Origin: a virus
Lineage: Duplodnaviria; Caudoviricetes
Direction: 5' to 3' (one strand)
Length of the DNA: 40,771 nucleotides
IMG/VR virus record: IMGVR_UViG_3300037424_003028
Coordinates: 1 to 40,771 of that record
The notes below the pieces were generated by a model. It was not told where the DNA came from. It worked only from the letters and a program-made list of their open reading frames with translations, and did not search any database. Shown one piece after another: positions 3,072-40,771 of the stretch; the stretch's first letter is position 1; the number at the start of each line of letters is the position of its first letter. The position numbers and the translations under genes are program-made.

Positions 3072-3083
3072 AACAACACTCCG

Positions 3084-3572: not shown

Positions 3573-3595
3573 TGTTTACCTCGCAAATTCTCAAA

Positions 3596-5241: not shown

Positions 5242-7336
5242 CCTCGCTCACTTGCGGCGCCTCGATGGCCGCCGGTCCCTGGGCGTCCGCCGTGCCGCTT
5301 ACCGTGACGGTGTTAAGCTCTGAGTCACCGTCCGGCGAAACCGCCCGGACGCCAAACTGTACCACGGTGTCATGGGCGAACGCGGCGGAAAGGTAAATCA
5401 GCCCGTGCATCTGCGCAACCGGCGTGTCCCAATCCATCGTGCCCGTCCCGGCGTCGCTGAACACGTTAAACCGCGTCGCCCGCACCGCCTGCCCCGCTGT
5501 TGGATATTTCCAGCTCACCAGCAACTTGCCGCCGACTCGCGGACTGACCCGTAGGCTGGTCGGGGCATTGGGCACCGGGGCCAACGGCAAGCCGTTCGCA
5601 TCCGTGGTAATTGTGTAGGCCAAAGTGGTGTTCTGTTCCTCGACCCCGCCGGGGCTTGTCGCCCGAAGCCCGTACACGTATGTAGTGTTCGCCGCCAGCG
5701 GGCCGGGATCTGAAATAATGCCGACGCCGGGAAGTACATTGGAAACCGGATTATCATAATCGACCGTTCCAACGCCGCGATAGAGGGTATAGCACGTGTT
5801 TGCCCAAGTCGTCGCGGACGCCGCCGCACCTAGCGACGTTTCCTGAATATAGGTGCCGTCGTATCGTGCCTTGGTTTTGAGCGAGTACTCGATTTCGGGG
5901 GCGAGGCCGGTAACCGCAAGCGTCCCCCATGCCGCCGCTGTCTGCCAAATTTCGCCGGAGTCTGAGACCGATCCATCGGCCTGTACCCAATGCGTGCCTT
6001 CGGTGTAGCCGCCGCCGTCAATCGTTATCGCGTACTGCGTGTCGGAGTTATCGTCGTTATAGCCCTCGTCAATCGTGACGCTCAACGACGTCGCTGTGGG
6101 CAGGGTCAGGACCGGAGCCGCCGGAACATGGCAGCGGTAGACGAATACATTGTCCCATACTGCCCCGTAGGCGTAGGCGCCCGTAGCAGACTCGACATCA
6201 AGAAACAAGAACGTGCTCGCCCCCGCGCCCGCATTGCACCCAACGGGTCCGAGATTAGTCCACTGGTTTGGGGTGTAGCTGCTGAGGGTTTGGAGCCAAG
6301 CAGCAGGTCGAGTGATAGATGTACTAACACCAACTTGTGGATAGCTGTTCTGGTCCGTTCGAGGATAAACACGGGCGAGAATAGTAAGAGCATCACCTTC
6401 GTTGGTGGCTACTTCCTGACATACATGCGCCCAATCGCCCATGTTGTAATGCGGCTTAACCCCCTGCGCAAGCAATCCGCCGTCTTTTATTGTGGTATAG
6501 CGAGTAAACGCGCCATTACCGTCGTTATCGGCGTCAGTCCAGCCAGTTGCGACCGTTTCCCCTACTGGAAAGTCCTCAAAATCTCCATTCAACAAGTTCG
6601 CCGCCGGCATTAGCAACAGCGGCGTAGTGTGCAACTGGATCATCTGGGCCGATGATAATTTGCATGCCCACACGCCCGCCATTGCCAGGAGGACGCCAGC
6701 CGATTCCCCGTTGACTAATCCCAAGGCCCATCCATCGGGATCGCTGGCGATGTCGCCTGCGTGGAACCAGTCAAGGTCTATCGCCGCGCCGTCGAAAACG
6801 AATATGTCCTCGGCAAAATCGGCCGAGTGACTGTAGCCTAGACAGTGCCACTCATTGTCATTCCACCCCACGGGCGGCGTGATTCTGGAGTTCAGGTAAT
6901 TATACAAATACCCGTCGGCAGGAGCGGGCGCGGCAATAACAAGCCCGCAGCCTTCGGATTCAGGAGTGGCGGATGGGTTGCCGATTAAATAGTGACTAGC
7001 TCCCGTCGACGGATTGCCAACCCGCCTAAACCAAATCACTATCGAGTAGGCATCCGCCTTTCCCGTCTCAACGGCATCTAATGCCGACTCATAGAAGATG
7101 CCATCATCGTCGCCCGTATCCGCGACGGTGGTTAATACCATGTTGCCGTCGCCATCGTCTACCCACTTGGTCGCGGCGGACGCAGTAATCATGTCCGCCG
7201 CGTCGTCGGCAACCTTACGCTGATCGCGTGCCCGCGTACCGCTGCCGTCGTTGCACGGCCAATACGCGACCGGCTCCGGGAAGTCTCGGTACGGCCGGTA
7301 CGGCGTGCCCAGTGGTGGTAATTCAAACGCCGCCAT
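5228..7336 (-). CDS. Multidomain virion protein: LamG/concanavalin-like, CBM-like and FN3-like domains
   Basis: PVAYWPCNDGSGT and WNDNEWH (LamG-like); NLLNGDFE (CBM4/9-like); VTGLAPEIEYSL and PNAPTSLRV (FN3-like). Confidence 0.7.
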   Translation of the reverse strand: MAAFELPPLGTPYRPYRDFPEPVAYWPCNDGSGTRARDQRKVADDAADMITASAATKWVDDGDGNMVLTTVADTGDDDGIFYESALDAVETGKADAYSIVIWFRRVGNPSTGASHYLIGNPSATPESEGCGLVIAAPAPADGYLYNYLNSRITPPVGWNDNEWHCLGYSHSADFAEDIFVFDGAAIDLDWFHAGDIASDPDGWALGLVNGESAGVLLAMAGVWACKLSSAQMIQLHTTPLLLMPAANLLNGDFEDFPVGETVATGWTDADNDGNGAFTRYTTIKDGGLLAQGVKPHYNMGDWAHVCQEVATNEGDALTILARVYPRTDQNSYPQVGVSTSITRPAAWLQTLSSYTPNQWTNLGPVGCNAGAGASTFLFLDVESATGAYAYGAVWDNVFVYRCHVPAAPVLTLPTATSLSVTIDEGYNDDNSDTQYAITIDGGGYTEGTHWVQADGSVSDSGEIWQTAAAWGTLAVTGLAPEIEYSLKTKARYDGTYIQETSLGAAASATTWANTCYTLYRGVGTVDYDNPVSNVLPGVGIISDPGPLAANTTYVYGLRATSPGGVEEQNTTLAYTITTDANGLPLAPVPNAPTSLRVSPRVGGKLLVSWKYPTAGQAVRATRFNVFSDAGTGTMDWDTPVAQMHGLIYLSAAFAHDTVVQFGVRAVSPDGDSELNTVTVSGTADAQGPAAIEAPQVSEGDDE

Positions 7337-9007
7337 TTATGTACTTGCCGTCCAATTGTTGTAGTCGATACAGGCGATCCATTCGGTTGCGTTAATCGCC
7401 ACAAGCCGCAAATAGTCGCCCACTACAATACTCTCTACGTACCCGCCCGCCGGCGTTATGTTGCCCGCTATCAACAAGCGAATAGTGTCGCCCGTGGCGG
7501 CTTGCACCCGGATGCCGTTGATATTGTGAACGTAGAATTCCATACTTCCACCGGCGACCGCAGATGGAAGGGTTAGCGTGACTAATGCACTCGCGCCTTC
7601 GTTGGTATGAAACTTTCCTTTATCAGCATTAGAAAGGTCGCCGCTGGTTGTGTGGGCGACAACGGGTGGCCCGACGGCACTAACCACCACGGTATTACCT
7701 GGATCAATTTCCTCTACTGCAACTCCAGTGCCGGCCGTCACGGTACGGGCGCCCAGCGAAGCTCGGGCGGTGGCTCCGGATTCAGTCACGAAGGTTGTCC
7801 CGTCGCCCACGATGATATTGCCATCTGTCGGCGTCAACGCGGCAATCGCGGCCAGCAGGGCGTTGTACGCCTGTACATGCGTGCCGATGGTCAAACCCAG
7901 CGAAGCTCGGGCGGTAGCCCCGGATTCAGTCACGAAGGTTGTGTCGTCGCCGACGATGATGTTGCCATCATCCGGCGTCAACGCGGCAATCGCGGCCACC
8001 GTCGCCCCGGACTCTGTCACCCAGGTTGTGCCGTCGCCGACGATGATGTTGCCACTTGTCGGCGTCAACGCGGCAATCGCGGCCAGCAGGTCGCTGTACG
8101 CCTGCACGTTGGTGCCGATGGTCAGCCCCAGCGAAGTACGAGCGGTAGATCCGGATTCAGCCACGAAGGTTGTGCCGTCGCCCACGATGATGTTGCCATC
8201 TGTCGGCGTCAACGCCGCGATCGCGGCCAGCAGGGCGTTGTACGCCTGCACATGCGTGCCGATGGTCAGACCCAGCGAAGTACGAGCGGTAGCCCCGGAT
8301 TCAGCCACGAAGGTTGTGCCGTCGCCGACGATGATGTTGCCATCTGTCGGCGTCAACGCCGCGATCGCGGCCAGCAGGGCGTTGTACGCCTGCACATGCG
8401 TGCCGATGGTCAGCCCCAGCGAAGCTCGGGCGGTGGATCCGGATTCAGCCACGAAGGTTGTGCCGTCGCCGACGATGATGTTCCCGTCCGTCGGCGTCAG
8501 CAAACTGATAGCCGCCAGGGCGGCATTGAGCGCGTTGGCGCTGAACACCACTCGCCCACGCACATCGGTCACTGTCGAAATCACGCCGTCGGCTACCGTC
8601 ACCACGGCGATGGGCACGTAAGATAATATATCCGCCGGCCAGCCCACCGCATCAGTCACCACCGTCGCCGTCGCCGCGCTGGTCAGGTAAACGTAATAGG
8701 TGTCCGGCGAAGTGCTGATGGCGATAGACGCCTCGCCCGCGTATGCGTAGCCGTCTACGCCCAGCCGATAGTCGCCCGGAAAGATGCCGATATGAGTATC
8801 ATCCACCTGCACCGGCCGCAACGCGGCAACGACCGAAATGATCGCCAGCATCCGAGCCAGCATCCGGTCAATCTGCTGCTGCAGCGGCGGCGTCGAAGCC
8901 GGCGAAGTGGCGGCGGGGACAAACGGCACCCCGGTGCCCGGGTCGATCGTTCCGTTCAAAGCCTCAATATCGCCGGCCGCCGGCCATTGTTCCACTGGTA
9001 CGGGCAT
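7337..9007 (-). CDS. Tail fibre protein with 48-aa repeats
   Basis: Repeated LTPTDGNIIVGDGTTFVAESGATARASLG; C-terminal TLTLPSAVAGG fibre-type motif. Confidence 0.8.
   Translation of the reverse strand: MPVPVEQWPAAGDIEALNGTIDPGTGVPFVPAATSPASTPPLQQQIDRMLARMLAIISVVAALRPVQVDDTHIGIFPGDYRLGVDGYAYAGEASIAISTSPDTYYVYLTSAATATVVTDAVGWPADILSYVPIAVVTVADGVISTVTDVRGRVVFSANALNAALAAISLLTPTDGNIIVGDGTTFVAESGSTARASLGLTIGTHVQAYNALLAAIAALTPTDGNIIVGDGTTFVAESGATARTSLGLTIGTHVQAYNALLAAIAALTPTDGNIIVGDGTTFVAESGSTARTSLGLTIGTNVQAYSDLLAAIAALTPTSGNIIVGDGTTWVTESGATVAAIAALTPDDGNIIVGDDTTFVTESGATARASLGLTIGTHVQAYNALLAAIAALTPTDGNIIVGDGTTFVTESGATARASLGARTVTAGTGVAVEEIDPGNTVVVSAVGPPVVAHTTSGDLSNADKGKFHTNEGASALVTLTLPSAVAGGSMEFYVHNINGIRVQAATGDTIRLLIAGNITPAGGYVESIVVGDYLRLVAINATEWIACIDYNNWTAST
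7751..8500 (-). repeat. 144-bp tandem repeats (six GDGTT-type motifs, one unit shortened to 87 bp)
   Basis: Motif recurs at ~8465, 8321, 8177, 8033, 7946 and 7802. Confidence 0.95.
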
Positions 9008-9471
9008 TAAGGTATCTCCTCAAGCTGAGCACTCGGCTCGAACGAAAACACCAACGAGCCGTCACTGATCCCCACATAGCGCAGACCAGTCGGGGCCCGC
9101 GGAGCGGAGTTGACAAACAGACTCACTTCGGCGGGTGGATCGGCCTGCTGATTGCCGAGCGCATCCATCGCCACCGCCGCGATCCGCACCGTTCCGAAAC
9201 ATACCGGCGGGGTTTCAAGCCGCACATCCACCACGTGCTTGCCGTTCGCGTTACGCGGTAGGTTGTCGCTCCATACCAGCGTGCCCCAGGGCGTCACACC
9301 CCAGACGGGCTGCTCGCCACCTTCGGGCCACAGTCGCAGCGGGGCGGTGTTGATCGGCAACGTCGGCTCGCCGGCGGCGATACCGCGCACATCCACGTTC
9401 CAAAAAAAACAGACCACTGCCTCGGGATCGCTCAGCGACGTTTCAGCCAGGGATAGCGATAGCTTAACCAT
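9007..9471 (-). CDS. Putative tail/baseplate protein
   Basis: 154 aa with 1-bp overlaps to both neighbours; WGVTPWG motif and APRAPTGL FN3-like start. Confidence 0.6.
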   Translation of the reverse strand: MVKLSLSLAETSLSDPEAVVCFFWNVDVRGIAAGEPTLPINTAPLRLWPEGGEQPVWGVTPWGTLVWSDNLPRNANGKHVVDVRLETPPVCFGTVRIAAVAMDALGNQQADPPAEVSLFVNSAPRAPTGLRYVGISDGSLVFSFEPSAQLEEIP

Positions 9472-11807
9472 CAGCCCACCTCCCGCGCACGTTTGCCCAT
9501 GCGTCCCCGGGCGGCGTTCTTGACCAGCTTGGGCACCGCCCGCACCTCGACACGATCGTCACCGATGGTCAGGTGGGTAGTCTGATTGTTGGGGGTGTTG
9601 ACCCACATTACCCGCACGATTTGCGGCCAGCCCGCACCGTTCTGGGTGGCCTCGAAGCGGATGCCGCGTGGGTCGATGCCCACCAAGGCGTCACCCGGCC
9701 GCCAGTGGTCGGCCAGCCGAGGCATAACCACCGTCCCGCTATACCGGCGGTTTTGTTCCGAATCGACAATCATCCTGGCCAACGCCATCGCCCGGGTCAG
9801 CTCGTCCAGGGTTGCCGCCGTCGCCCCGGCAATGGCGGCATCCTTGACGTTGGTGTCCGTGCAATTCTCGTAGCGGATAGCGGCGCGCACGTTCACATCC
9901 ACATGATGGGCGGGCTTGCCCACGGCGTTGGTTGACTCGTAAGTAGCCTGGGCCACTTCGTCACTCTCCACGCAACAGCGGACCGCCAAACGAAACGTGC
10001 CCCGGATGATCGCTTCCCACACGGATTTGCCGACGGTGGCATCGACGGCCCGGATGCCCTTATTTTTGATCTCCGCAAGGTTGGAATCGGACAGGTACAC
10101 GGCAAAGCGGTCTTCGAGAAAATGATAATTGCCGGGATAAGCGTACCAATGTCCGCCGCTATCTAATGAACACTCGACAATCGGACGCATCTGCACACCT
10201 TGGTCCAGCCGAGTAATCAGCGGCAGTATCTTGCGGCGGCGGGCGATCCACTCGGTCGTGCGTTGACCGGCGGTATCGAACACCCGCTTGGTGCCCAGCG
10301 AAGCCCATTTATAATTAGAATCATAAATGCTCTGACCCCAGCACGATGTGTCGCCGTTGGTATGCGCGTAGTCCGCACCCGCCAGCTCCCGAGACTCGTT
10401 TAAGCCCCACAGCCGCCCGACGTACATGTACTGGGCATGTTCCGCGCCGCCGGTGGTATATCGTGCGGTCATGGTGCCGGGGTCGCCGGTCTGGTTTTCC
10501 TCGCCGACCCCCTTGGTGCTATTGATCTTCGCCGTCATCGTCTCGCCACTGAGATCGTCGCCGAACATGGTGTCCGGCTTCCACAACGGCAGCATGATGT
10601 CGCGTGAGGCCGGCCCCTTGCCGACCTGTACCTCGTACAGCTCCGGAGTACCCAGCACGCGGCAGGAAGTAATCACGTTGCCACCGTCGCGGACAATCTC
10701 GCCCTGATACACTTCCAAGTATTGGTGGGCATCCACCGGCGACAGAACGTCCACGTGAACGCCGGGCGGTAGTAACTGCAGGGCACGCGGGGCGGGGATC
10801 GGCGTAGCCAGGGTAGGTCGCAGGGTACGATCGTCGCCCGATAGTGCATGGTCGCCGTAGATGCCGGCTTCCCGGTTCAAATGAAACAGCGCGTTGGTGT
10901 CCGGCGTCGATCCGCTGCCGAAGGTATATTGGTGCATCGAGCATCCGAACGCCTCACACCACATCAGCATCGCCTTGACCACCGGCATACCATCGCAGGC
11001 CAGCGGATCGGCCTTACACTTCAACACGTCGCTCAGGGCGAACAGTGCCGAGGGCACCTCATTCAGCGGGGCGGCGTTGCTCTCCACGATGTCGGCGAAC
11101 AGTGCGACGATCTGTGCTAGTGAGATTCCGGCATCCTCCGGCAGTTTTCGCCAATAGAAAACATACAGATACTTGAGGATGTCCGCGGCCTTCCAGTACA
11201 CCGCATCCGGCGTGTCGTCGTCGGTGAACACCGGTGTAGATTCGATAGTTTCGTAGGTGAGCAAATCCGGGTGTCGATTGGGTCGCCCGCCGACATTGAA
11301 AATGCACGGCAACGCCCGGACCAGGGCCACCTTCTTATCATCCGCGGTCTGCCCGCGATCGCGCATATACCGGCCGGCAATCCAGCTCGCGCGTTGCTTG
11401 CCCACCCATTCAAGTTTAGAGGTGCACGCAATGGTCGCCGTCAGACTGTCCGGCGAAAACCTCAATGTATCCACCGCGAAATAGCCGTGGAACAGGAAAC
11501 GGCGTTGTCCGTCCGACTCGGCGAAGATGACTACCTCGGTATTGAGCGCCACCGCCGCGTAAACCTCACCCTCGCTCAGGGGATATTCATAATCGACGCC
11601 ATCCTCGCGGGCACCGGACAAGTCGATGGATAGCTCGGCTCGCGGAAAGTCCCTATTCAACCCGACGGACACGGAATCGACCCGCAGCCGCGGGGCCAGC
11701 CAATCGCTAGCCCAATCGAAATCGAACCCCTCGCCCGCCTTGCGCGTAGCCACCAGCAGGTCATACCCCGCGAATTCCAGACTTGTCGGAGTAGCCAGCG
11801 GCTTCAT
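9471..11807 (-). CDS. Putative baseplate hub / tail tip protein
   Basis: 778 aa, second gene after the tape measure; C-terminal WRPGD...QTTHLTIG resembles hub/Tal proteins. Confidence 0.6.
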   Translation of the reverse strand: MKPLATPTSLEFAGYDLLVATRKAGEGFDFDWASDWLAPRLRVDSVSVGLNRDFPRAELSIDLSGAREDGVDYEYPLSEGEVYAAVALNTEVVIFAESDGQRRFLFHGYFAVDTLRFSPDSLTATIACTSKLEWVGKQRASWIAGRYMRDRGQTADDKKVALVRALPCIFNVGGRPNRHPDLLTYETIESTPVFTDDDTPDAVYWKAADILKYLYVFYWRKLPEDAGISLAQIVALFADIVESNAAPLNEVPSALFALSDVLKCKADPLACDGMPVVKAMLMWCEAFGCSMHQYTFGSGSTPDTNALFHLNREAGIYGDHALSGDDRTLRPTLATPIPAPRALQLLPPGVHVDVLSPVDAHQYLEVYQGEIVRDGGNVITSCRVLGTPELYEVQVGKGPASRDIMLPLWKPDTMFGDDLSGETMTAKINSTKGVGEENQTGDPGTMTARYTTGGAEHAQYMYVGRLWGLNESRELAGADYAHTNGDTSCWGQSIYDSNYKWASLGTKRVFDTAGQRTTEWIARRRKILPLITRLDQGVQMRPIVECSLDSGGHWYAYPGNYHFLEDRFAVYLSDSNLAEIKNKGIRAVDATVGKSVWEAIIRGTFRLAVRCCVESDEVAQATYESTNAVGKPAHHVDVNVRAAIRYENCTDTNVKDAAIAGATAATLDELTRAMALARMIVDSEQNRRYSGTVVMPRLADHWRPGDALVGIDPRGIRFEATQNGAGWPQIVRVMWVNTPNNQTTHLTIGDDRVEVRAVPKLVKNAARGRMGKRAREVG

Positions 11808-12217
11808 GGCCTCAACTCCCTGAAAGTCAACGCATATCTGCCGATGAATGAAAACGTTCCACCCACGCCACCCACCGGTTCGGTGGACACGAAATCCACC
11901 AGCTCGACGTTGTATATCGTGCGACCGTGCAAGGTCATGGTGTAGCCGCCATCCTGCAGCTTGGCTTCGATGGCATCCTCCAACGCCGTTAGACTGGCCA
12001 GAGTCTCCGACAACACCGTCAGCGTCCAGACTATCTGTCGCCCGCCCTTGCCTAGGTACTGAACCATGACCCCATGCACGCCGGGGTAAACGAACTCTGC
12101 CCGGCGGTTTTCAATCGGTCCACGATAAACGTGTACGAACGAACGGTAGGCCGATTGATCGGTCCCATTCAGGCCGAAATTTATGTCTGCCCAAGTTGGC
12201 GGAATGATACTCGGCAT
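11804..12217 (-). CDS. Putative distal tail protein
   Basis: Immediately follows the tape measure; YPGVHG...LGKGGRQI...YALTFREL pattern. Confidence 0.55.
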   Translation of the reverse strand: MPSIIPPTWADINFGLNGTDQSAYRSFVHVYRGPIENRRAEFVYPGVHGVMVQYLGKGGRQIVWTLTVLSETLASLTALEDAIEAKLQDGGYTMTLHGRTIYNVELVDFVSTEPVGGVGGTFSFIGRYALTFRELRP

Positions 12218-12225
12218 ATCACGTC

Positions 12226-13941
12226 CTACTTGCGAATCTGCGGCGCACTGGCCGGCAACTGAGTCCGATCCGACGAACTCATGTACGTATCGCCGTACTG
12301 TATATTGTTAATTACCGTGCCCATCTCTCCCGAGAGCGGTTTATCGTTCCACACTCGTTCTCCCTGTTCCTCGGTTAAATTCTCAGTATTAAACCGTCGG
12401 CCCATCGGTCGAATAATACGTTGTGGGCCGCTTATATCTTTCACCTTGCCATCGCGGCTAAAGAATTTGCCACCGCTACCCACAACCCCGTTGTTTCCGC
12501 GACGGGTATCAGAGATCCCGGTCTCATACAAAGCCGCATCTAGTTGTGCCTGCAGTCGCTCGGCAGAACCGCTTCTGCCCGGCACCGCCCACAATTCGGT
12601 AATTCCCAGCCGGTTTAATTGTTCGGCCAACGCGAACGATTCAATTTGTGTCGATTCGAGTTGAAATTTATTCGCCCACCATCCCACATGCCGCCGCTCG
12701 TCACGGGTTGCACGGGCTGCACTAAGTTTTGAGACGGCAGTTTCATCTAATCTCCCAATTGCGGCATCGTAGGCATCGAGATTTGCTTGACGACTGGTTT
12801 TAGCAGCCTCAGAAATGTTGGTTTGTGCAACATTTTCCTTTATAAAGCCGCTGTTTTCATCAAGATACGCTTTGCCCCCGGGAGCCGCAGCCACCGTTTT
12901 CAGGGCATCCTTGTAAGCCTGCCGCCCAACCGCAGCCACCGCAAACTCGCGTACCCTTTCTCTTTCTGCCGGGTTCGGAATTTCCCCAAAGAATTCATCC
13001 ATTGCCGCAGGATCATCTTGCCGTTTGGCTACTGCCGACTGGAATGCCTCGAACCTTTCATCATAGCTGAGCGACAAATACGACCGCCCCGTCTCGGCCT
13101 CAATGGCGTCGCGTGCCGATTGTTTTTTCATGGCGACGTTCATCTGTCCCATCAACCGCATGGACTGCATCTGGCTATTGGTAACGGCGCGGGCTTGAGC
13201 CATTCGCGCCAGTATTTTTTCAAAATTTGCCCCCTCAAGAAACCCACCCATGCCGCCACGCGCCGTTGCTTGGGCGATCTCGCCGGGCGAGGCGAAGTAG
13301 GTAACGCCCATAACCTTTTCCATTTTCGAGAAAATAGCGGCGGCGGCCTCTTTTGAGTCTGTCGCCCCTGGAATACGGGACAACATTTCAGATGAGGCCG
13401 TGGCTTGATCGGCGTCCCCGCCAGTGCGGGCTAATGCACCGGCAATCACATTTTGAATTTCCTTTTTCAGCCCCTCATCACCGCCCATGACCGAATGCAC
13501 CGCCCGCCGAGATTCCGCCGCCAACTCATAACTAGCACCGGTGTCTGAAGATGTTTGTGCGATGCGCGCCGCCTCAACCCCGACGGACACGCCTTCCTGG
13601 GTAGCCGCCGCCAATGTTTTTTGCTGGGCTCCAGCGGAGGCTGTCGCCATTTCCCCCAACCGAACTTTCATCTCTAAAATGTGTTGGTTCCATGCCATGA
13701 ACTCGCTGGTGATTTTCATCACCGCGCCGACAATTCCGCCCCCAATCAAAATGCCTTTCACATCTTCAAACGAGCGAGTTAAGGCACCCCCAAAAGCAGT
13801 CAGCGACCCGTGTGCATCCTTGCTGGTTTTGCCCAAATCCATTGACGCCAGTTCAGCCTTACGCTGGGCCTGGGTGAGATTTAGGAACGCGCGCACCGCG
13901 CTGGCGTCGTCGCCTTCTAGTCTGAATTGAACAGTGCCCAA
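12226..13941 (-). CDS. Tail tape measure protein (short, 571 aa)
   Basis: Ala-rich helical protein directly after the frameshift chaperone; N-terminal VQFRLEGDD, C-terminal VINNIQYGD. Confidence 0.75.
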   Translation of the reverse strand: MGTVQFRLEGDDASAVRAFLNLTQAQRKAELASMDLGKTSKDAHGSLTAFGGALTRSFEDVKGILIGGGIVGAVMKITSEFMAWNQHILEMKVRLGEMATASAGAQQKTLAAATQEGVSVGVEAARIAQTSSDTGASYELAAESRRAVHSVMGGDEGLKKEIQNVIAGALARTGGDADQATASSEMLSRIPGATDSKEAAAAIFSKMEKVMGVTYFASPGEIAQATARGGMGGFLEGANFEKILARMAQARAVTNSQMQSMRLMGQMNVAMKKQSARDAIEAETGRSYLSLSYDERFEAFQSAVAKRQDDPAAMDEFFGEIPNPAERERVREFAVAAVGRQAYKDALKTVAAAPGGKAYLDENSGFIKENVAQTNISEAAKTSRQANLDAYDAAIGRLDETAVSKLSAARATRDERRHVGWWANKFQLESTQIESFALAEQLNRLGITELWAVPGRSGSAERLQAQLDAALYETGISDTRRGNNGVVGSGGKFFSRDGKVKDISGPQRIIRPMGRRFNTENLTEEQGERVWNDKPLSGEMGTVINNIQYGDTYMSSSDRTQLPASAPQIRK

Positions 13942-14021
13942 AAATCACCCCGCCAGGAAACTCATATCCGCACAGGTCGGCCGATAGCCGGGCGACAAAC
14001 CGCGCCGCCACATTTCATAGA

Positions 14022-14762
14022 TCAGCCAGCGGTTGCCGGCGTTTTTTTTTGATCGTCGCCCAGCATCGCCCGCCCGATGGCCAGAATGCCGGGCACATCC
14101 ACCAAGGCTTCTAACACCGTCTTGATGCTCTTGGTAGTCAACAGCCGCAGCACCGATACCTCCGCCGCACCAATCCGGTAATTGAGAGCCAACGCCGCGA
14201 TCGCCGCCGCCCATTCCTCATCATCGCTCAGCGGCTGGACCTTGACGCCTTCGGACGTCGGCCCCTGCTGAGCCGCCTTGATCACCTCCCACACCCGCAA
14301 CGTCGTCGCCCATATCCCCGCGTAGCGGTCACACACCTGCCGCTCCAACTTTCCGGAGTCGCCCAGGGTAATGTTTTGATCCAGGGCGATAGTGTCATCG
14401 CACATCCGTGCGACCGGACACAGCCACTGGCGGCCGTCGCCCAGCGTCAGCATATAACCCGGCAAACCCTCCGATCGCATCAGGTCCGCCGGCCCCGGCG
14501 GGGCATCATTCCACCAGCCCAGCCAGTGCGATCCGCCCGGCGCTCGCCGCCAGCTTTGCTTGAGCGGGTAAAATCCAACCGGACGATCCGGCTGCATACT
14601 GACCACCAGCCCGCCGCCGGCACCGTCGATGTCGTCCGGGCCGGCTCCCTCGACCAGCCGTTGTTGGGCGGTCATGTCCACGATGCCGCTCAGCCCGTTC
14701 GCGTCGATCGCGGTTGGGCTGAGCATGGTTATCCTCGGCAGCCAATACAAAAAGTCCGCCAC
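14022..14762 (-). CDS. Tail assembly chaperone (gpG-like), with a -1 frameshift extension to 13945
   Basis: Between tube and tape measure; A9 slippery run near the end; -1 frame stays open to 13945. Confidence 0.75.
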   Translation of the reverse strand: MADFLYWLPRITMLSPTAIDANGLSGIVDMTAQQRLVEGAGPDDIDGAGGGLVVSMQPDRPVGFYPLKQSWRRAPGGSHWLGWWNDAPPGPADLMRSEGLPGYMLTLGDGRQWLCPVARMCDDTIALDQNITLGDSGKLERQVCDRYAGIWATTLRVWEVIKAAQQGPTSEGVKVQPLSDDEEWAAAIAALALNYRIGAAEVSVLRLLTTKSIKTVLEALVDVPGILAIGRAMLGDDQKKTPATAG

Positions 14763-14807
14763 AAAAGCACCTCGATTGGATAATCGACCAATTAGGTGAT
14801 CGGTCGA

Positions 14808-15722
14808 TCAGGTGATCGGAACGCCGGTAGCGATGCCCAGCAAGGCATTGCCGGTGCCGTCCCATGCTGGAGTAATGGTCAGTTCCGACGCCGTCTGATC
14901 GTCGCTCGCCGCCCAGCTCTTAACCGCGACCTTGCCGGCCGATACGCTCAGGGCGATATGACTGTTACTGTTCGCCGCCGCCAACCCGCCCGGTGCCACC
15001 ATGCGCATCAGATAGAGGCCGCTGGCCTCCGCACCGGTCAAGGCCCCGCCGAACAGCCCCAGGCTGTAATGGTTGGTCTGGGTCAGGCAGCTTATGGTGA
15101 TCTTCGGCTGGCGGGACTTGATGGCGATGTACGTCGGCCACACGTCGCCGTCGCTGGACTGCATAATCAGCTCGATGCCGAAGTCCACGCGGGCGCTGAT
15201 TATGCCAGGCAACTGGACGCCGTTGATCTTCACCGGCCCCAGGGTGTAACTCTCTACCGGCACATTGATCGCCGGATAAGCCACGCCGTTGGCGATGGCG
15301 AACGGCGGATACAAATCGTTACCGCCCCAATAGGGTATAACATCCACCGACAGCTTGGCCCGCTGGCCCTGCTGCACATCCAGCGTTCGCGGCACGAACA
15401 AGCCGTTCAGCATGGTGTAGGCAATACTGGCGGCGGCATCGCGGCCGGCACATATTGCCATCTTGCGCAGGTACAGGGTGGCACCGGGCGTGGCCACCGC
15501 CAGACCCATGCCGATCTTGGCCAGCGCACTGCCCACGCCGATGCTGCTGAAGCTAAACTTCGGCTTCTGGTCGATGGCATGTACGGCCGTGGGATCAACA
15601 TTGCCGTCGGCAATCAACAGCATATCGACCAAACCATCGTTGAAGTTGCTCCCCTCGATGCCGTTAAGGTATGAATTGTCGGGCAGTCGAATGCCGCCCA
15701 GGGTGAACATTTCACCGGTCAT
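14808..15722 (-). CDS. Major tail tube protein
   Basis: 304 aa beta-rich ORF positioned before the chaperone and tape measure. Confidence 0.65.
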   Translation of the reverse strand: MTGEMFTLGGIRLPDNSYLNGIEGSNFNDGLVDMLLIADGNVDPTAVHAIDQKPKFSFSSIGVGSALAKIGMGLAVATPGATLYLRKMAICAGRDAAASIAYTMLNGLFVPRTLDVQQGQRAKLSVDVIPYWGGNDLYPPFAIANGVAYPAINVPVESYTLGPVKINGVQLPGIISARVDFGIELIMQSSDGDVWPTYIAIKSRQPKITISCLTQTNHYSLGLFGGALTGAEASGLYLMRMVAPGGLAAANSNSHIALSVSAGKVAVKSWAASDDQTASELTITPAWDGTGNALLGIATGVPIT

Positions 15723-16204
15723 GTCAATGTCCTCCGTTCGGTAGTCATCTTCAAGTTCATCGCCCGCGCCGATTCACGATCCACCAACTTGGCCAACGTC
15801 CGCCGCTCATCATGTACCGTGGTGGTCAACTCACCGGCCTTGTACGGCTGCTTAAAATTCTTCTGGTAGGCGTACAACTGCTTCGGCCCACGCATCCGCA
15901 AGGTCGCCCCGCGTGCCGACACGTTGGTGATAATGCGCTCGGCCTGTACCATTCGCCGCGTCTCGCCCGACCACACCAACGGGTTTTGATGCCCATATCG
16001 CTTTTGCTTCCGCTTCTGGTAGGCCCGCGTGCGCGTCTGGTAGTGATACCGCCGGCCGCCCTCTTCGGTGAAATGCACCGGCAGCACGAACCGGTGCCAG
16101 TATTCCAGGGCGTGCATCCAGCCGCCGCGCTGGGCCTTCTCGCGTAGCCGGGCCACCTGCCGCGGGCTGCCCTGCTCGATGATCTCGCATCTGATCCGCG
16201 GCAT
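15719..16204 (-). CDS. Neck / tail completion protein (basic)
   Basis: Arg/Lys-rich with PLVWSGETR motif; start chosen at MPRIRC, which overlaps the upstream stop. Confidence 0.55.
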   Translation of the reverse strand: MPRIRCEIIEQGSPRQVARLREKAQRGGWMHALEYWHRFVLPVHFTEEGGRRYHYQTRTRAYQKRKQKRYGHQNPLVWSGETRRMVQAERIITNVSARGATLRMRGPKQLYAYQKNFKQPYKAGELTTTVHDERRTLAKLVDRESARAMNLKMTTERRTLT

Positions 16205-25936: not shown

Positions 25937-27112
25937 TTACTCGATGTCGTCCGCCTGCCCGGTGCCGATCAGGACGCGGGCCTGCGCTTCCGGCATGGCC
26001 GGCCCCACGTAGCGAAACACCGCACACGGCCGGCCGCCGATCCGGCTCTCGGGCTTGCGGCCCACCATCCAACTCGACGCCTTCGTCGGCGTGGTCGAAA
26101 ACACTCCCGGCCGCTTACGCATCTGCCAATTAGCCGAGCGATCGTGGCTGTGCGCAAACGAGGGATGGGCCGGGTAGCTATGGAAGTGACAGCCGATCCC
26201 GCGATACGCCGCACCCAGGGTCTCGATCAGCACGAAGGCCAACCCCAAGCCCTGATAATCCGGCAGTGTCACCACCCTTGACACCCCCCAGATTTTTCGG
26301 CTGAACTTATTCCTCACGTTGCCCGGAGTGGGGCGGTACAACACTCCGCAAAACGCCGTCAGCTTGCCCTCCAGCCACAGCCCGTAGCACCTCGCCCCCT
26401 TATGCAAATTGCGGCTCATATAGTGATACGCAGCGAAGATGGGCCATGCGGAGCGTGACACTTGAGAGATGACCACGTCAAGTTCTGGCCGACGCCGAAG
26501 TGACCTCCCGGCATATTGCCCGGTTGAAGGGTCATAAACCCAGTCGGGTTGCAGCCAGTCGAGAACGTCATAGTGACAGGTGATAGCCACGAACTTTTGC
26601 CCCTTGCGCTTGCGGACGAACTTCTGCACCGCATGGCTGGCGATCTTAGCCACCTGGCGATCGACCACCGAGGTAAATTCATCCACCGCCACCAGCTCGC
26701 CGCCTTCGATCAGACGCCGGGCCAGTTCCACCCGGAACTTCTCGCCGTTGCTGAGCACGTGGAAAGGTTTCATCCATGACGGCACGGTGTTGAAGCCCAC
26801 CGCCGAGCAGGTGGCGGTGATGACCTCCATCGACAGCTTCTTGTCAAACTCGTCAACCACCGCCCGATCGCCGTGCCAGGTCAGCGGCTTATCCACCGCC
26901 TCGCCGAACAGCCGCCGGGCCACTTGCGACTTGCCGCTGCCCGAGGGCCCGACGATCAAGCCGATCTGCCAGTCGCCGGCGTCGATGGGGATGTCCACGT
27001 TCCATTCCCGCCGCAGCTTCTGCTGGGCGGGCACGTCGAACATGCCCTCCAACTGCTGCACCCGCACGGTGCGGGGCACCCTGGATTCAACTACCAGATC
27101 AAACTTGGGCAT
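25937..27112 (-). CDS. ABC-type ATPase fused to a GNAT (Mom-like) acetyltransferase
   Basis: GPSGSGKS, LSNGEKFR and VDEFTSVVDR motifs; GNAT motif A RVVTLPDYQGLGLA. Confidence 0.9.
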   Translation of the reverse strand: MPKFDLVVESRVPRTVRVQQLEGMFDVPAQQKLRREWNVDIPIDAGDWQIGLIVGPSGSGKSQVARRLFGEAVDKPLTWHGDRAVVDEFDKKLSMEVITATCSAVGFNTVPSWMKPFHVLSNGEKFRVELARRLIEGGELVAVDEFTSVVDRQVAKIASHAVQKFVRKRKGQKFVAITCHYDVLDWLQPDWVYDPSTGQYAGRSLRRRPELDVVISQVSRSAWPIFAAYHYMSRNLHKGARCYGLWLEGKLTAFCGVLYRPTPGNVRNKFSRKIWGVSRVVTLPDYQGLGLAFVLIETLGAAYRGIGCHFHSYPAHPSFAHSHDRSANWQMRKRPGVFSTTPTKASSWMVGRKPESRIGGRPCAVFRYVGPAMPEAQARVLIGTGQADDIE

Positions 27113-31730: not shown

Positions 31731-32544
31731 CTACGAGTTTCCATTGGCCCACTTCCCGCTTAAGCTCTGCCAACGCATCATCGAGCACCGCGAACGCCTC
31801 GGCCCCAAATTGCCGCTGCAACAAGTCGCCGGCCGACCGTACCACCGCCGCCAACTTGTGGGTGTACTGCGAAACCCAGTCGATCCGTACTAGAACACCT
31901 TCACGCTCCAACCGTTCGAGCCGAGCCAACTTGGCCCGCTCATCCCGATACCGTTCGAGCGCCGGGCTGTCGGCCCCCGAATACATATCCGCCTCATCAT
32001 CATCCGCACCCGAAAGCCGCCGCGAATTCTTAGCGATGAAATCGTGTAAGCTCCTGACCACCGCCTCCAAATCGACTACCGCACCGCCAAAGGGCATCCC
32101 GTACCGTCTGGCCTGCTCGTTCAAAATCTTGGCCTGCCGCCCGCTCATCTTGATCCAGTGAGCCTGCGGAATGCTGTGATAGATTTCCCATCGTTGCCGC
32201 TCCTCGTTGGCCTGTTCCCACCGACGCAGGGCGGCCAACTCTTGCCGCGACGGCATCTGTCCAGCCTTCCGCTTCTGCAACGCCCGCGCCGCCAACTCAC
32301 GCTCGATCTGCTGCGAGGTAGTCAGCAGTGCAGCCGATTGTGTCGTCGCTCCACCTTTGCGTTTTGCGCTTCGGTCCACGGCCGGCACGTTGCCGCGATT
32401 CCCGCTACCGTCCACGGTCGACACGTTGCCGCGCTTCCCGCTACCGCCCACGGCCGGCACGTTGCCGCGCTTCCCGCTACCGCCCACGGCCGGCACGTTT
32501 CGGTTATCCCCGGTCGAATTGCCGCCGCCCTTCGGCCGTGTCAT
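31603..32544 (-). CDS. terS: Terminase small subunit (Nu1-like)
   Basis: Upstream of terL; SPALERYRDERAKLARLERLEREGVLV motif; GAGGGAG RBS before MTRPKG. Confidence 0.8.
   Translation of the reverse strand: MTRPKGGGNSTGDNRNVPAVGGSGKRGNVPAVGGSGKRGNVSTVDGSGNRGNVPAVDRSAKRKGGATTQSAALLTTSQQIERELAARALQKRKAGQMPSRQELAALRRWEQANEERQRWEIYHSIPQAHWIKMSGRQAKILNEQARRYGMPFGGAVVDLEAVVRSLHDFIAKNSRRLSGADDDEADMYSGADSPALERYRDERAKLARLERLEREGVLVRIDWVSQYTHKLAAVVRSAGDLLQRQFGAEAFAVLDDALAELKREVGQWKLVGDVYSAGDDNQPQDGERVGSRVQKGGVRRNRSGDGPAAKDDA
32376..32499 (-). repeat. 36-bp tandem repeat (~3.4 copies) in the terS N-terminus
   Basis: Encodes NVPAVGGSGKRG-like 12-mers. Confidence 0.92.
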
Positions 32545-38343: not shown

Positions 38344-38871
38344 CTACTTTCCTCCTCCGACCATGCGGATCGGCTTGGGCAATACCTCGCCGGTGTCTTC
38401 GTCAACCTCGCCGTCCTTGTCGTTAGTTTTTCCGGCTTCCTGCGTCTGCATTATTTTGTTCCAGTGCGTACTGCCCAGCCGCCTACCCAGCCGGGTCAAT
38501 TCATCAACCCCGCCGTCCTTTAGGTCGGAAAAGCCCATTTGGTCGGGGTTGTCTGGACTGTCGCTGGCAAACAACAGCCTGGGCGACTCTTCGCCCGTCT
38601 CTCCAACGAAACGTAGCAGCGACTTCCCCTCTTGGCCGGGCAACTTGGTGGCAGTCTTGTATGTAAATTCGGTGTCCTCCACCTTCCCGGTGCTCAGATT
38701 TGGCTGCGGCTTAAACTCCATCACTAAGGTCAGTATCCGCTTGCGGTCATCCCCCTGTCGCCGCCCAATGTCCACGCGAATCTTTTCCAACTCGATGTTT
38801 ACAGCTTTACATACGCCCCCTTTTTGAACCCGTGCAAGTGTCTCGAATGTCAAGTCGTTTGGAGTGAGCAT
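38344..38871 (-). CDS. YfdP-like phage protein carrying an inserted duplicated segment
   Basis: GGV..AVNIELEKI..DI..R..D..KRILTLVMEFKP and VDEDTGEV motifs. Confidence 0.6.
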   Translation of the reverse strand: MLTPNDLTFETLARVQKGGVCKAVNIELEKIRVDIGRRQGDDRKRILTLVMEFKPQPNLSTGKVEDTEFTYKTATKLPGQEGKSLLRFVGETGEESPRLLFASDSPDNPDQMGFSDLKDGGVDELTRLGRRLGSTHWNKIMQTQEAGKTNDKDGEVDEDTGEVLPKPIRMVGGGK

Positions 38872-39046
38872 TGCATCCCTTTCGTTTATTGGTTTTCTTT
38901 CGTCCGTTCAACATGATCCGCAGATCGTCGTTAGTTTTTCCGGCTTCCTGCAGCCGTATTATTTTGTCCCAGTGCGTACCGCACAGCCGCCTGCCCAGCC
39001 AGGTCAATTCGCTCACACCCCTACATCCCGGCCAGCAGCAGGTCAT
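38807..39046 (-). CDS. Small zinc-finger-like protein
   Basis: CCWPGC...LCGTHW. Confidence 0.6.
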   Translation of the reverse strand: MTCCWPGCRGVSELTWLGRRLCGTHWDKIIRLQEAGKTNDDLRIMLNGRKKTNKRKGCNAHSKRLDIRDTCTGSKRGRM

Positions 39047-39068
39047 TGAAGCTCTCAGCTTTCAGCTA

Positions 39069-39266
39069 TCAGCTATCAGCGGTCAGCCGTTTGAATATCC
39101 CGCCCAGCTTCGCGGCCGTGGCCGCTACGACGCGACCGGCATCCATCACCCGATCCACGGCCGTGAAGATGCGCCAGGCCAGCACGGTGCCCAGCTCGAT
39201 GCGGTCGTGGGCCAAGTCTTCTTCGTCGTCGGCCTCTAAAATGGAAAGTTCGATTCTCTCGGACAT
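39069..39266 (-). CDS. Hypothetical protein
   Basis: 65 aa with GGAGG RBS; stop lies within a heptamer array. Confidence 0.6.
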   Translation of the reverse strand: MSERIELSILEADDEEDLAHDRIELGTVLAWRIFTAVDRVMDAGRVVAATAAKLGGIFKRLTADS

Positions 39267-39551
39267 GGCGACCTCCGTGTCGTTAAGAAGCTGTAAGCTT
39301 TAAGCCCTCAGCTATCAGTCGGACAATTAGATCCCTGCAAACTGGCGACATCTTTCTCTGCCCACACCCTCGATCGTTGTGAGGATGCGATCCTCGGACC
39401 TATTGCCGTGCGACAGGTGTCCCCACCGCACGGCGTTCCCAGTGTTTCAGACCGGCGTAACCAGCCTTGGCTGATGGGGCAGCCGGGTGCATTGTCTCAC
39501 GCGCTGCTGGAGCCGATCACCACAGAGACGCGGAGGCACAGAGAATTCAAC

Positions 39552-39767
39552 TCACGACGCGATCAGCTCGAACCACATCTCGTGGTCCCAGATTCCCAGC
39601 CGGTTAGATTGATCCAGGACCGGATAGATCACTCGCCCGCCCAGCTCGACGCGATCGGCGATTCCATCAGCTATGCGTTCGCGGAGAAACATGTCGGCCT
39701 CGACAAACACCGCTCCGCACCGAACCGGCAGGGGCAGGGATAAAAAAACTTCGGCTGTCTCGGGCAT
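39552..39767 (-). CDS. Hypothetical protein
   Basis: 71 aa with GGAG RBS. Confidence 0.6.
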   Translation of the reverse strand: MPETAEVFLSLPLPVRCGAVFVEADMFLRERIADGIADRVELGGRVIYPVLDQSNRLGIWDHEMWFELIAS

Positions 39768-39847
39768 GGTCGTATCTCCAAAATAAGTTATTGGCTAAGC
39801 GAGGCGGCCCGAGCGTCGCGTATCCCTCACCACCCGGGCCGCCGGTG

Positions 39848-40039
39848 TTAGCGAAGAATTTTACACTTGGTCAACGCGGCCAGCGGCGACACATCCACCA
39901 CCTGCGTGTCGGACAGGTAGAGCTCGGTCAGGTTGGTCAACGCGGCCAGCGGCGACACATCCACCACCTGCGTGGCGGACAGGTCGAGCGTGGTGGTTTC
40001 AGGTCCGCAGCCAGCTATTAGTTTCTCAAAATCTTTCAT
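39848..40039 (-). CDS. Mini leucine-rich-repeat protein (63 aa, two 22-aa internalin-type repeats)
   Basis: AAAGGGAG RBS before MKDFEK; LT.L.LS.TQVVDVSPLAALT twice. Confidence 0.8.
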   Translation of the reverse strand: MKDFEKLIAGCGPETTTLDLSATQVVDVSPLAALTNLTELYLSDTQVVDVSPLAALTKCKILR

Positions 40040-40124
40040 CGTCGCTCCCTTTCTTCTCTGTGCCTTCGTGCCTCTGTGGTGAATTTCCATTATCCTCATT
40101 AGATAGGCTGGCCTCAGCCCATCT

Positions 40125-40502
40125 CTATGCACCCATCTCCTGCAGCCGCAATGTCGCCGCTCGATGGTCGCGGAGTACCAGTTTGTCTGACTTAGCCAGC
40201 CTCGCCGCTTGCCGGGCAACCTGAACGTTCACAAAAAAACCATCTAGCCACTCTCGCGTGGTGTGGATGCGCTTGCCGACAAGGACATGCCTCAGAAACA
40301 CCCGCTGGTTCCGAACCTTCAGACCTTCGGTGGCCCAACGGCTGATGGTCGAAACGTGAGGATTGCCGGGCACGATGACCGCCGCCTGCTGCAACGAAAT
40401 GTACTTACTCATATCCGCGTCGGCCGGTGCCGGCGAGGCGCGATCGTATTGATCGTGGTTGCAGTCAAGCTCGGAAACTGCGTGTCTCATACGATCCTCC
40501 AT
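40125..40502 (-). CDS. DUF1580-type HTH protein (excisionase/Cox-like)
   Basis: ISLQQAA...PHVSTISRWATEGL...L.HVLVGKRIHTTREWLDGF. Confidence 0.8.
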   Translation of the reverse strand: MEDRMRHAVSELDCNHDQYDRASPAPADADMSKYISLQQAAVIVPGNPHVSTISRWATEGLKVRNQRVFLRHVLVGKRIHTTREWLDGFFVNVQVARQAARLAKSDKLVLRDHRAATLRLQEMGA

Positions 40503-40771
40503 GATCCCTTCAAAGCTCTTAGCACTGAGCTATAAGCCGGACCTTCGCACTCATCACACTTGCCGGGGCGGGGTGGTGTCGCGGGACCGCACCCATACGC
40601 CCCGGCTGCGTCGCGGATTCGGCGACGAATTTTACACTTGGTCAACGCGGCCAGCGGCGACACATCCACCACCTGTGTGCCGGACAGGCAGAGCGTGGTC
40701 AGGTTGGTCAACGCGGCCAGCGGCGACACATCCACCACCTGTGTGCCGGACAGGGCGAGCGTGGTCAGGTT
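40487..40771 (-). CDS. Leucine-rich-repeat protein, 5' end outside the window
   Basis: At least two 66-bp LRR units, frame open to the window edge. Confidence 0.75.
   Translation of the reverse strand, partial: NLTTLALSGTQVVDVSPLAALTNLTTLCLSGTQVVDVSPLAALTKCKIRRRIRDAAGAYGCGPATPPRPGKCDECEGPAYSSVLRALKGSWRIV

What the first reader, a model, noticed from the sequence alone, without database searches (positions are those of the whole stretch)
39848..40771. Two phage LRR genes whose repeats vary almost only at positions 1-2 of three exposed codons: candidate targeted-diversification system
Seen: four 66-bp units in two genes share an identical 36-nt block (CAGGTGGTGGATGTGTCGCCGCTGGCCGCGTTGACC). Apart from the N-cap junction and one silent ACA/ACG, they differ only at the x codons of LT-x-L-x-LS-x-T: ACG/GAG; GCC/TGC/GAC/TAC; GGC/GCC/GAC. 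Third bases of these codons are fixed and the changes are non-synonymous. Established: these x positions form the concave ligand-binding face of LRRs, and NNC/NNG variation is what DGR adenine mutagenesis of AAC/AAG templates produces. Inference: repeat shuffling or mutagenic retrohoming builds a variable binder library, e.g. against host defence proteins. Caveats: no reverse transcriptase is in the window, other adenines are invariant, and n=4.
Basis: partly seen in the sequence, partly recalled or inferred. Interest (0 to 1): 0.8.

Follow-up and report, generated by a model that had tools for sequence, protein, structure and literature searches.

The report
Shuffled mini-LRR binder genes in prophage
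A temperate phage carries two small genes built of almost identical 22-residue repeats that differ mainly at three predicted surface positions; they likely encode binding proteins varied by copying and swapping repeats under selection rather than by a reverse transcriptase, and an unrelated phage with no detectable reverse transcriptase shows the same design.

Summary
Four 66-nt LRR units in two genes differ, outside the N-cap, at only six columns: five non-synonymous ones in three exposed codons and one silent one. That clustering exceeds chance (p 0.003 and 0.0005).

The DGR reading is disfavoured. The record has no RT, template copy or GRNA hairpin; seven adenines per unit never change; and fixed third bases are expected in units this young. 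The best evidence is a second, unrelated lambda-like phage (G001, 43.5 kb, CheckV 100%) with the same two-gene design and nearly the same statistics. It has no RT hit, and its units are mosaic.

Best reading: young, stand-alone, internalin/Roco-type 22-residue LRR genes in the phage early region, evolving like the highly conserved sensor repeats of fungal NLRs (repeat duplication and exchange plus diversifying selection). The target is unknown; a cytoplasmic binder in host conflict is inferred.

A DGR stays possible (about 10%): the record is 55% complete, at least 10 kb upstream is unseen, and all variable columns are adenine-derivable. This scan noted similar phage LRR arrays before on other DNA.

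The parts
39848..40039 (-). LRR gene 1, 63 aa: 13-residue helical N-cap, two 22-residue LRR units, short capping strand
   Evidence: ORF; Pfam LRR_4 E 1.7e-7; AF2 pLDDT 92, strands at 17-19 and 39-41; purine-rich SD-like stretch 5 nt before the ATG
40487..40771 (-). LRR gene 2, 3' part: last two units, cap, and a tail of about 45 residues that likely reads through an intergenic palindrome; the 5' part lies beyond the contig end
   Evidence: open frame to the contig end; Pfam LRR_4 E 5.4e-8; contig depths suggest about 4 units
39935..40000 (-). gene 1 unit 1 (joined to the N-cap); codons 4/6/9/10 = ACG/GAC/GCC/ACG
39869..39934 (-). gene 1 unit 2; GAG/TAC/GAC/ACG
40706..40771 (-). gene 2 penultimate unit; ACG/GCC/GGC/ACA
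40640..40705 (-). gene 2 last unit; ACG/TGC/GGC/ACA; this unit type stands at about two copies in run X1
   Evidence: depth 26.9 against 12.1-12.2 for single-copy neighbours
40040..40098 (-). upstream module of gene 1 (REP-like motif at 40054-40082 plus ribosome-binding site); a second near-identical copy exists in both runs and is inferred to be the start of gene 2
   Evidence: X1 contig of 10,174 nt matches 40028-40098 with 3 differences; X2 contig of 932 nt matches 39954-40098 with 7
40125..40490 (-). DUF1580-like gene between the two LRR genes; its ATG overlaps the stop of gene 2 (ATGA)
   Evidence: Pfam DUF1580 E 4e-4, under the cut-off; Atlas 30 of 30 hits DUF1580-type clusters, commonest phylum Planctomycetota
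39803..39843 (.). GC-rich inverted repeat just after the stop of gene 1 (9-bp perfect stem, 23-nt spacer)
   Evidence: one of only 4 such stems in the window; fold z -1.8; no 4-nt-loop stem
40562..40606 (.). GC-rich inverted repeat after the cap of gene 2 (9-bp perfect stem, 27-nt spacer), different in sequence from the first
   Evidence: fold z -3.8; the only 4-nt loop is TCGC on a 5-bp stem, not GRNA

Best explanation
These are two recently duplicated stand-alone LRR genes in the early region of a temperate phage, likely of a Planctomycetota host, whose repeats are likely kept identical by duplication and exchange of units while selection likely favours change at the residues predicted to form the binding face. 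Shown: a shared upstream module, N-cap and C-cap; near-identical scaffolds; changes clustered at exposed codons; and the same design in a second phage without an RT hit. Inferred steps: (1) the gene was duplicated with its upstream module; (2) slippage or unequal crossing-over across the 45-nt identical stretch copies whole units within each gene; (3) short exchanges between units, or recurrent change, reassort the exposed codons; (4) selection keeps new binding faces. The proteins have no visible signal peptide and would act in the cytoplasm, most likely binding a fast-changing host or rival-phage protein during early infection or induction; the target is not shown.
For: Scaffold identity is 0.99 against 0.59 in the three codons (three internal units). 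The six tail-fibre repeats of the same phage diverge mostly silently (3.80 synonymous and 2.47 non-synonymous codon differences per pair over 22 codons), the LRR units the other way (0.67 and 2.33). The silent site sorts by gene and one unit type stands at about two copies, as concerted evolution predicts. Columns 16 and 30 show all four gametes (1 of 15 pairs), so exchange or recurrent change is needed. Comparator G001 (IMGVR_UViG_3300037462_000196) is a lambda-like temperate phage of 43,546 nt, CheckV 100%, both ends inside the repeat, sharing only terminase (25%), portal (28%) and the LRR with the window. It has two tandem stand-alone LRR genes with a duplicated upstream module and N-cap. 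Its 16 internal units (of 20; four cap units dropped) show 0.68 synonymous and 2.65 non-synonymous differences per pair, 77% of the latter at codons 4, 6, 8, 9. Codon 4 is NNG in 16 of 16, codon 6 NNC in 15 of 16, 8 adenines are invariant (one inside codon 6), 13 of 91 column pairs are incompatible, and 2 of 5 distinct units of one gene recur unchanged in the other. It has no RVT_1 hit and no further unit copy elsewhere in the record. The same regime is described for fungal NLR repeats (PMC4986451, passages) and a Flavobacterium LRR locus without mobile genes (PMC10392669, passages).
Against: Only four units were read directly, and they are not independent. In gene 2 the units seen differ only at codon 6 and always by two bases (GCC, TGC; AAC inferred in run X2), which is extreme for point mutation plus selection. 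Codon 8 (TCC, no adenine) is invariant although it is as variable as the others in homologues (2.05 bits). Third bases of all three codons are fixed in only 5 of 210 and 15 of 210 four-unit draws from two older cellular arrays. No repeat-number or allele polymorphism was shown for this phage. Of the 15 proteins whose units are closest, only 3 are known here to carry a NACHT domain, so the link to defence sensors is loose. PADLOC has no hit for either gene.
Confidence: 0.62

Rival explanations
1. Both genes are targets of a diversity-generating retroelement: a template with AAG, AAC, GAC/AAC and ACA at these codons is copied by an RT that randomises adenines.
For: All six variable columns can be derived from adenine, and five show an A allele in the window. 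Run X2 shows G to A at 39985, giving AAC at codon 6 in what is inferred to be gene 2's first unit. Codon 8, which has no adenine, is invariant. GC-rich inverted repeats follow both genes (2 of 4 in the window). The record is 55% complete, at least 10 kb upstream is unseen, and DGRs can act in trans and occur in planctomycetes (PMC10907252, passages).
Against: No RVT_1 hit in the record; no template in the window. In X1 the contig for unit positions 18-60 (in X2, 18-68) is unbroken, so no unit with another codon 9 before ACA stands in the contigs; a single template cannot then give both genes. Adenines at positions 1, 2, 7, 32 and 64, which vary in homologues, are kept in 18 of 18 places against 9 of 24 at the variable columns (units not independent, columns chosen after the fact). 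No GRNA 4-nt-loop hairpin (PMC3240598, passages). C is the commonest allele at column 11, while C was rare in Bacteroides DGRs (10.1101/2024.11.15.621889, passages). An A allele at all but one variable column is the rule in cellular arrays (203 of 210 and 197 of 210 draws). Hypervariable residues of Dictyostelium LRRs are likewise mostly Y, D, H, N and C (PMC10392669, passages). G001 shows the pattern with no RT hit.
Confidence: 0.1
2. Recent duplication under purifying selection alone: the scaffold cannot change, the exposed codons can, and no binding arms race is needed.
For: Positions 4, 6, 8 and 9 are the most tolerant in every homologous array; the sample is small.
Against: Silent sites are free too, yet 1 of 17 varies against 5 of about 7 non-synonymous sites in the three codons (p=0.003). 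Moderately tolerant positions 1, 3, 11, 20 and 22 do not vary. G001 repeats the excess with 16 units.
Confidence: 0.13
3. The units were captured from the repeat sensor of a host NLR-like or Roco protein and carry variation that arose there; gene 1, with two repeats, may be a shrunken or non-functional remnant.
For: The closest units include C-terminal arrays of NACHT proteins (P0070, P0129) and the Chlorobium Roco LRR (PDB 5il7). Gene 1 is very short and gene 2 seems to have lost its stop.
Against: Both genes have a dedicated N-cap, C-cap and ribosome-binding site. The 63-aa product is predicted to fold (pLDDT 92, a prediction leaning on known LRRs). The exact 36-nt block has 0 matches in viral and metagenome contigs, and the genome scan found one distant relative. 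Differences sort by phage gene.
Confidence: 0.1
4. A dedicated, RT-free mechanism (a recombinase or programmed gene conversion using the flanking modules and inverted repeats) reassorts the exposed codons, as in lamprey VLR assembly.
For: Mosaic units in both phages; repeated upstream modules and hairpins flank the genes in both.
Against: No recombinase other than the phage integrase is annotated in either record (the ORFs scanned were a selection). No silent cassette array was seen. The hairpins differ in sequence and in G001 belong to an intergenic module that also precedes a non-LRR gene.
Confidence: 0.05

Closest known systems
Fungal NLR sensor repeats with high internal conservation (Podospora het-d/het-e WD40; ANK and TPR arrays; PMC4986451, passages read)
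   Same: Near-identical repeats, exchange within and between gene copies, diversification at a few binding-face codons.
   Different: Those are WD40/ANK/TPR domains of large NACHT or NB-ARC receptors in fungi. Here they are 22-residue LRRs in tiny stand-alone phage genes with no NTPase; repeat-number polymorphism is not shown.
Flavobacterium psychrophilum tandem LRR locus (PMC10392669, passages read)
   Same: Tandem LRR genes, about 22-residue repeats, hypervariable residues on one face, recombination with no mobile-element genes.
   Different: Chromosomal, secreted surface proteins, up to 19 genes with many fragments. Here two genes in a phage with no visible signal peptide.
Internalin A / Chlorobium tepidum Roco LRR class (PDB 2omy, 5il7; Pfam LRR_4)
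   Same: 22-residue unit and fold (phmmer E 2e-54 for 5il7; Foldseek rmsd 0.6 A over 47 residues).
   Different: Thr instead of Asn at the ladder position; only 2 to about 4 repeats; no Roc-COR or cell-wall anchoring domain.
Prophage hypervariable repeat genes hyvI/hyvII (lasAI/lasAII) of 'Ca. Liberibacter asiaticus' (PMC3708911, passages read)
   Same: Two prophage genes with nearly identical LRR-like tandem repeats; repeat loss and gain reported there.
   Different: 44-residue repeats in autotransporters of 341-919 aa; no sequence relation tested or seen.
Diversity-generating retroelements (BPP-1 type; PMC3240598, PMC10907252, passages read)
   Same: NNC/NNG codons at the variable sites, two possible targets, GC-rich inverted repeats 3' of the genes.
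   Different: No RT, template or GRNA hairpin found; many adenines invariant; variation spread over tandem units that are also duplicated whole.

Membership tests
Diversity-generating retroelement target | DGR reverse transcriptase in the element or host | tested here: inconclusive
   0 of 1 record with RVT_1 at E<=1, but the record is 55% complete and the host is not held
Diversity-generating retroelement target | Template repeat differing from the target only at adenines | tested here: not met
   none in the window; unbroken contigs over unit positions 18-60 in X1 and 18-68 in X2 leave no such unit in the contigs. Contigs can drop variants, so this is not absolute
Diversity-generating retroelement target | Variation at template adenines in general | tested here: inconclusive
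   all 6 variable columns are A-derivable, but 7 adenines per unit are invariant, five of them at positions that vary in homologues
Diversity-generating retroelement target | 7-10 bp GC-rich hairpin with a 4-nt GRNA loop within about 34 nt of the variable repeat (phage DGRs, PMC3240598) | tested here: not met
   no such loop after either gene; the inverted repeats present have spacers of 23 and 27 nt
Diversity-generating retroelement target | Adenine-specific variation among reads of one population | not testable with these tools
   both runs are held as contigs only
High-internal-conservation repeat array (as in fungal NLRs) | Repeats over 85% identical across at least 100 aa (PMC4986451) | tested here: inconclusive
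   identity met (86-95% between internal units); length not met within one gene as read (44 aa each; gene 2 about 88 aa by depth); met in G001
High-internal-conservation repeat array (as in fungal NLRs) | Exchange within and between gene copies | tested here: met
   gene-specific silent site, a unit type at two copies, one four-gamete pair in the window and 13 of 91 in G001; recurrent mutation is not excluded
High-internal-conservation repeat array (as in fungal NLRs) | Excess non-synonymous change at a few binding-face codons | tested here: met
   count test p=0.003; strands 17-19 and 39-41 carry codons 4 and 6; no codon-model test was run
High-internal-conservation repeat array (as in fungal NLRs) | Repeat-number polymorphism among isolates | not testable with these tools
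   short-read contigs collapse the array
NLR / STAND receptor | NACHT or NB-ARC NTPase before the repeats | tested here: not met
   gene 1 is complete at 63 aa with LRR_4 only; gene 2 is inferred to start with the same N-cap
22-residue internalin/Roco-type LRR | LxxLxLxxN/T motif, 22-residue period, solenoid fold | tested here: met

The most novel reading that the evidence does not exclude
Unrelated temperate phages carry a recurrent, so far undescribed class of tiny cytoplasmic LRR binders whose binding faces are reassorted faster than the rest of the genome, by repeat exchange or, here possibly, by an RT acting on tandem LRR units. They would work as an adaptable counter-defence, mimicking or blocking the LRR sensors of bacterial NLR-like immunity.
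Probability: 0.25. Interest if true: 0.8.

Novelty: new variant of a known kind. Interest (0 to 1): 0.45.

Why it matters
Rapid reshaping of a repeat binding face is known for fungal immune receptors and some bacterial surface proteins. Finding it in minimal stand-alone genes in the early regions of two unrelated temperate phages suggests that phages use the same route to make new binders, and the proteins are small enough for simple tests of target and counter-defence. It also shows that NNC/NNG codons at LRR faces are not by themselves a sign of a DGR. My literature searches found no paper on such phage genes. The nearest is the Liberibacter prophage pair, but the library lacks most subscription papers.

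Tried and rejected
Circular closure. I supposed that the 10,174-nt X1 contig joined gene 2 to the integrase end, leaving only about 2.5 kb unseen. It does not lay on window 1-16000, so at least 10 kb upstream is unseen.

Retrieving gene 2 whole. Protein searches at near and longer lengths did not return it (best 120 of 396 listed). The same gene 1 product lies on a 43,427-nt contig, whose extra 2,656 nt could not be read.

Close relatives of this phage. Viral scans with the integrase, DUF1580 and phrog_210 proteins found none. The exact and a degenerate block found none. The cultured-phage collection gave only 12 records labelled Listeria phage, at under 60% identity. Matches reported over residues 1-62 for L003, L007 and L008 are other LRR sequence, not this N-cap; my note overstated this.

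Run X2. Its contigs show only GGC-ACA units and no cover of 39400-39850 or 40100-40650 apart from short repeat matches. At depth 3-6, with simplified contigs, this is not evidence that gene 1 differs or is missing.

Other checks. An Rfam hit to nhaA-I on the first hairpin is below its threshold (24.5 of 37 bits) and was rejected. No promoter-like site and one terminator-like site (chance level) were found near the genes. The representatives search was dominated by long LRR proteins. No complex prediction was run, as no partner is proposed.

Full report
SETTING. The window is a whole IMG/VR provirus record, CheckV 55% complete. It is a lambda-like temperate phage: integrase, tail-fibre repeats, major head protein, S49 protease, portal, gpA terminase, methylases, resolvase and replication initiator, all on the minus strand (55 selected ORFs scanned). 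The finding lies at the right end, upstream of the replication genes, in what would be the early region (inference from gene order). A DUF1580-like gene between the two LRR genes points to a Planctomycetota host (under the cut-off). Two sediment metagenome runs hold the region, one possibly the source.

OBSERVATION. Confirmed. Outside the N-cap junction the four units differ at six columns: 10 and 11 (codon 4), 16 and 17 (codon 6), 26 (codon 9) and the silent column 30. Seven adenines are invariant in the three internal units. Five of about 7 non-synonymous sites in the three codons vary, against 1 of 17 synonymous and 0 of 33 other non-synonymous sites (Fisher p=0.003 and 3e-5; codons picked after the fact). 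In 225 homologous arrays the four most variable positions are 4, 6, 8 and 9, and the chance that all five columns fall there is 5e-4. The AlphaFold model of gene 1 (pLDDT 92, 17 sequences) puts codons 4 and 6 on the strands at residues 17-19 and 39-41; that these form the ligand-binding concave face is established knowledge of LRRs. The fold matches internalin A and the Chlorobium Roco LRR. As an internal control, the tail-fibre repeats of the same phage differ mostly silently (3.80 against 2.47 per pair), unlike the LRR units (0.67 against 2.33).

WHAT LIES BEYOND THE EDGE. Only assembled contigs are held for the two runs (73% and 90% of the runs read; 16 of 160 pieces listed). In X1 a 10,174-nt contig of phage-like depth (12.2) ends in a near copy of gene 1's upstream module and first codons. 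In X2 a 932-nt contig does the same and runs into a first unit with AAC at codon 6. I infer that this is the start of gene 2, so the gene was duplicated with 59 nt of upstream sequence. From listed depths and bin totals I solved for three unlisted pieces: gene ends 28, ACA-type units 51, ACG-type 33, all units 89, against 12-14 per copy. This gives two genes and six or seven units, about four in gene 2, with the TGC unit about twice. These are estimates from noisy depths. The 10-kb contig does not match window 1-16000, so at least 10 kb upstream is unseen and could hold an RT.

DGR TEST. For: every variable column can be derived from adenine; AAC occurs in X2; the adenine-free codon 8 is invariant although variable in homologues; gene 2's units differ only by double changes in one codon; and GC-rich inverted repeats follow both genes (2 of 4 in the window). 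Against: no RT; no template in the window; the contig over unit positions 18-60 (X1) or 18-68 (X2) is unbroken, which leaves no unit with a different codon 9 before ACA; adenines at tolerant positions are kept in 18 of 18 places against 9 of 24 at variable columns (not independent); and the hairpins lack the 4-nt GRNA loop of phage DGRs (PMC3240598). The codon pattern itself is weak evidence. Changes at first and second bases leave third bases alone, and only one silent site varies anywhere. An A allele at all but one variable column appears in 203 of 210 and 197 of 210 four-unit draws from two cellular arrays, though all third bases were fixed in only 5 and 15 of those draws, as those arrays are older. 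Hypervariable residues of Dictyostelium LRRs are likewise mostly Y, D, H, N and C (PMC10392669).

COMPARATOR. The last viral scan returned 16 loci; 9 were examined. Two are the ends of one record, G001: 43,546 nt, CheckV 100%, classed linear, both ends inside the second LRR gene. It is a lambda-like temperate phage (36 selected ORFs) that shares only terminase, portal and LRR with the window at E<1e-5. It has two tandem stand-alone 22-residue LRR genes with an identical upstream module and nearly identical N-cap, outside the structural operon. Of 20 units, 16 internal ones were counted: 0.68 synonymous and 2.65 non-synonymous differences per pair, 77% of the latter at codons 4, 6, 8 and 9; codon 4 NNG in 16 of 16, codon 6 NNC in 15 of 16; 8 invariant adenines, one in the middle of codon 6. 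Thirteen of 91 column pairs are incompatible with a single tree, and 2 of 5 distinct units of one gene recur in the other. No RVT_1 hit, no YxDD-type motif in long ORFs, and all 11 DNA matches to the repeat lie in the two genes. Its hairpin belongs to an intergenic module that recurs, in variant form, before a non-LRR gene. A host RT in trans is not excluded for G001 either. Of the other loci examined, most are F-box-like LRR genes of apparent giant viruses or large multidomain proteins.

MECHANISM. Shown: duplicated gene design, near-identical scaffold, clustered non-synonymous change, mosaic units, and recurrence in a phage without an RT hit. Inferred: unit copying by slippage or unequal crossing-over across the 45-nt identical stretch, exchange between genes, and diversifying selection. 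This is the regime described for fungal NLR repeats (PMC4986451) and suggested for bacterial NLR repeats (10.1101/2020.01.06.895854). Function is inferred only. No signal peptide is visible by eye (no predictor was run), the genes sit among early genes, and close units occur in C-terminal arrays of NACHT and KAP-type NTPases. However, only 3 of the 15 closest proteins are known here to be NACHT proteins. Bacterial NACHT proteins defend against phage, one carries LRRs, and phage proteins can counter them (10.1101/2022.07.19.500537). I therefore favour a cytoplasmic binder in conflict with host defence or rival phages, at modest odds.

LITERATURE SEEN. Passages only, no supplements: PMC4986451, 10.1101/2024.11.15.621889, PMC10907252, 10.1101/2020.01.06.895854 (63), PMC3240598, 10.1101/2022.07.19.500537 (75), PMC10392669, PMC3708911. 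Searches returned no papers; 19, 38, 48, 60, 62, 76 and 101 were seen as listings. 'REP-like' for the upstream motif, the lamprey VLR comparison and the tRNA-fragment reading of the att site are my own labels. Earlier notes of this scan report similar phage LRR arrays on other DNA; I stated my reading before seeing them and did not test them.

VERDICT. Real and non-random, probably not a DGR. A new variant of a known kind: high-internal-conservation repeats, here as minimal phage genes seen in two unrelated phages. Interest 0.45.

Noticed in passing
window 1423-1468: 3' half of a tRNA gene between the last tail-side genes and the integrase, probably an att core. ARAGORN's tRNA-Tyr call at 1427-1517 looks like an over-extension, since tRNA-bearing contigs match only 1427-1468. 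Whether the integrase at 1-1380 belongs to this phage or to a neighbouring island is open.
   Followed up: partly
window 7337-9007 (-): Tail-fibre-like gene with 48-residue repeats (one shortened to 29) that diverge mostly at silent sites; collapsed at about three copies in run X1.
   Followed up: partly
window 23248, 34612, 35210, 39049-39095, 39288; 39517-39545 and 40054-40082: Two families of short intergenic motifs; the second is extremely abundant in both runs (summed depth 850-1600) and forms an inverted pair around gene 1 and a 71-aa ORF.
   Followed up: no
window 38419-38502 and 38927-39010: 84-nt direct repeat (89% identical) shared by a 175-aa ORF and the small ORF upstream of it: a second recent duplication in the early region.
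   Followed up: no
window 32359-32502: Tandem 36-nt repeats upstream of the terminase gene.
   Followed up: no
window 25937-27112 (-): ABC-type ATPase fused to a GNAT acetyltransferase domain (phrog_11143) next to an HTH gene between terminase and portal.
   Followed up: no
L015 9315-9385 and 9890-9960; L016 500-565 (G001): Repeated intergenic module (hairpin plus ribosome-binding site) before both LRR genes and, in variant form, before the sliding-clamp gene: a possible handle for gene duplication in that phage.
   Followed up: partly
L005 367-2514: KAP-type NTPase (PADLOC PifA/QatA-like hits) with a C-terminal Thr-ladder LRR array: a candidate defence sensor.
   Followed up: no
L006 5433-10162: Four tandem LRR genes with signal-peptide-like starts and a cap like that of the window's genes.
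   Followed up: no
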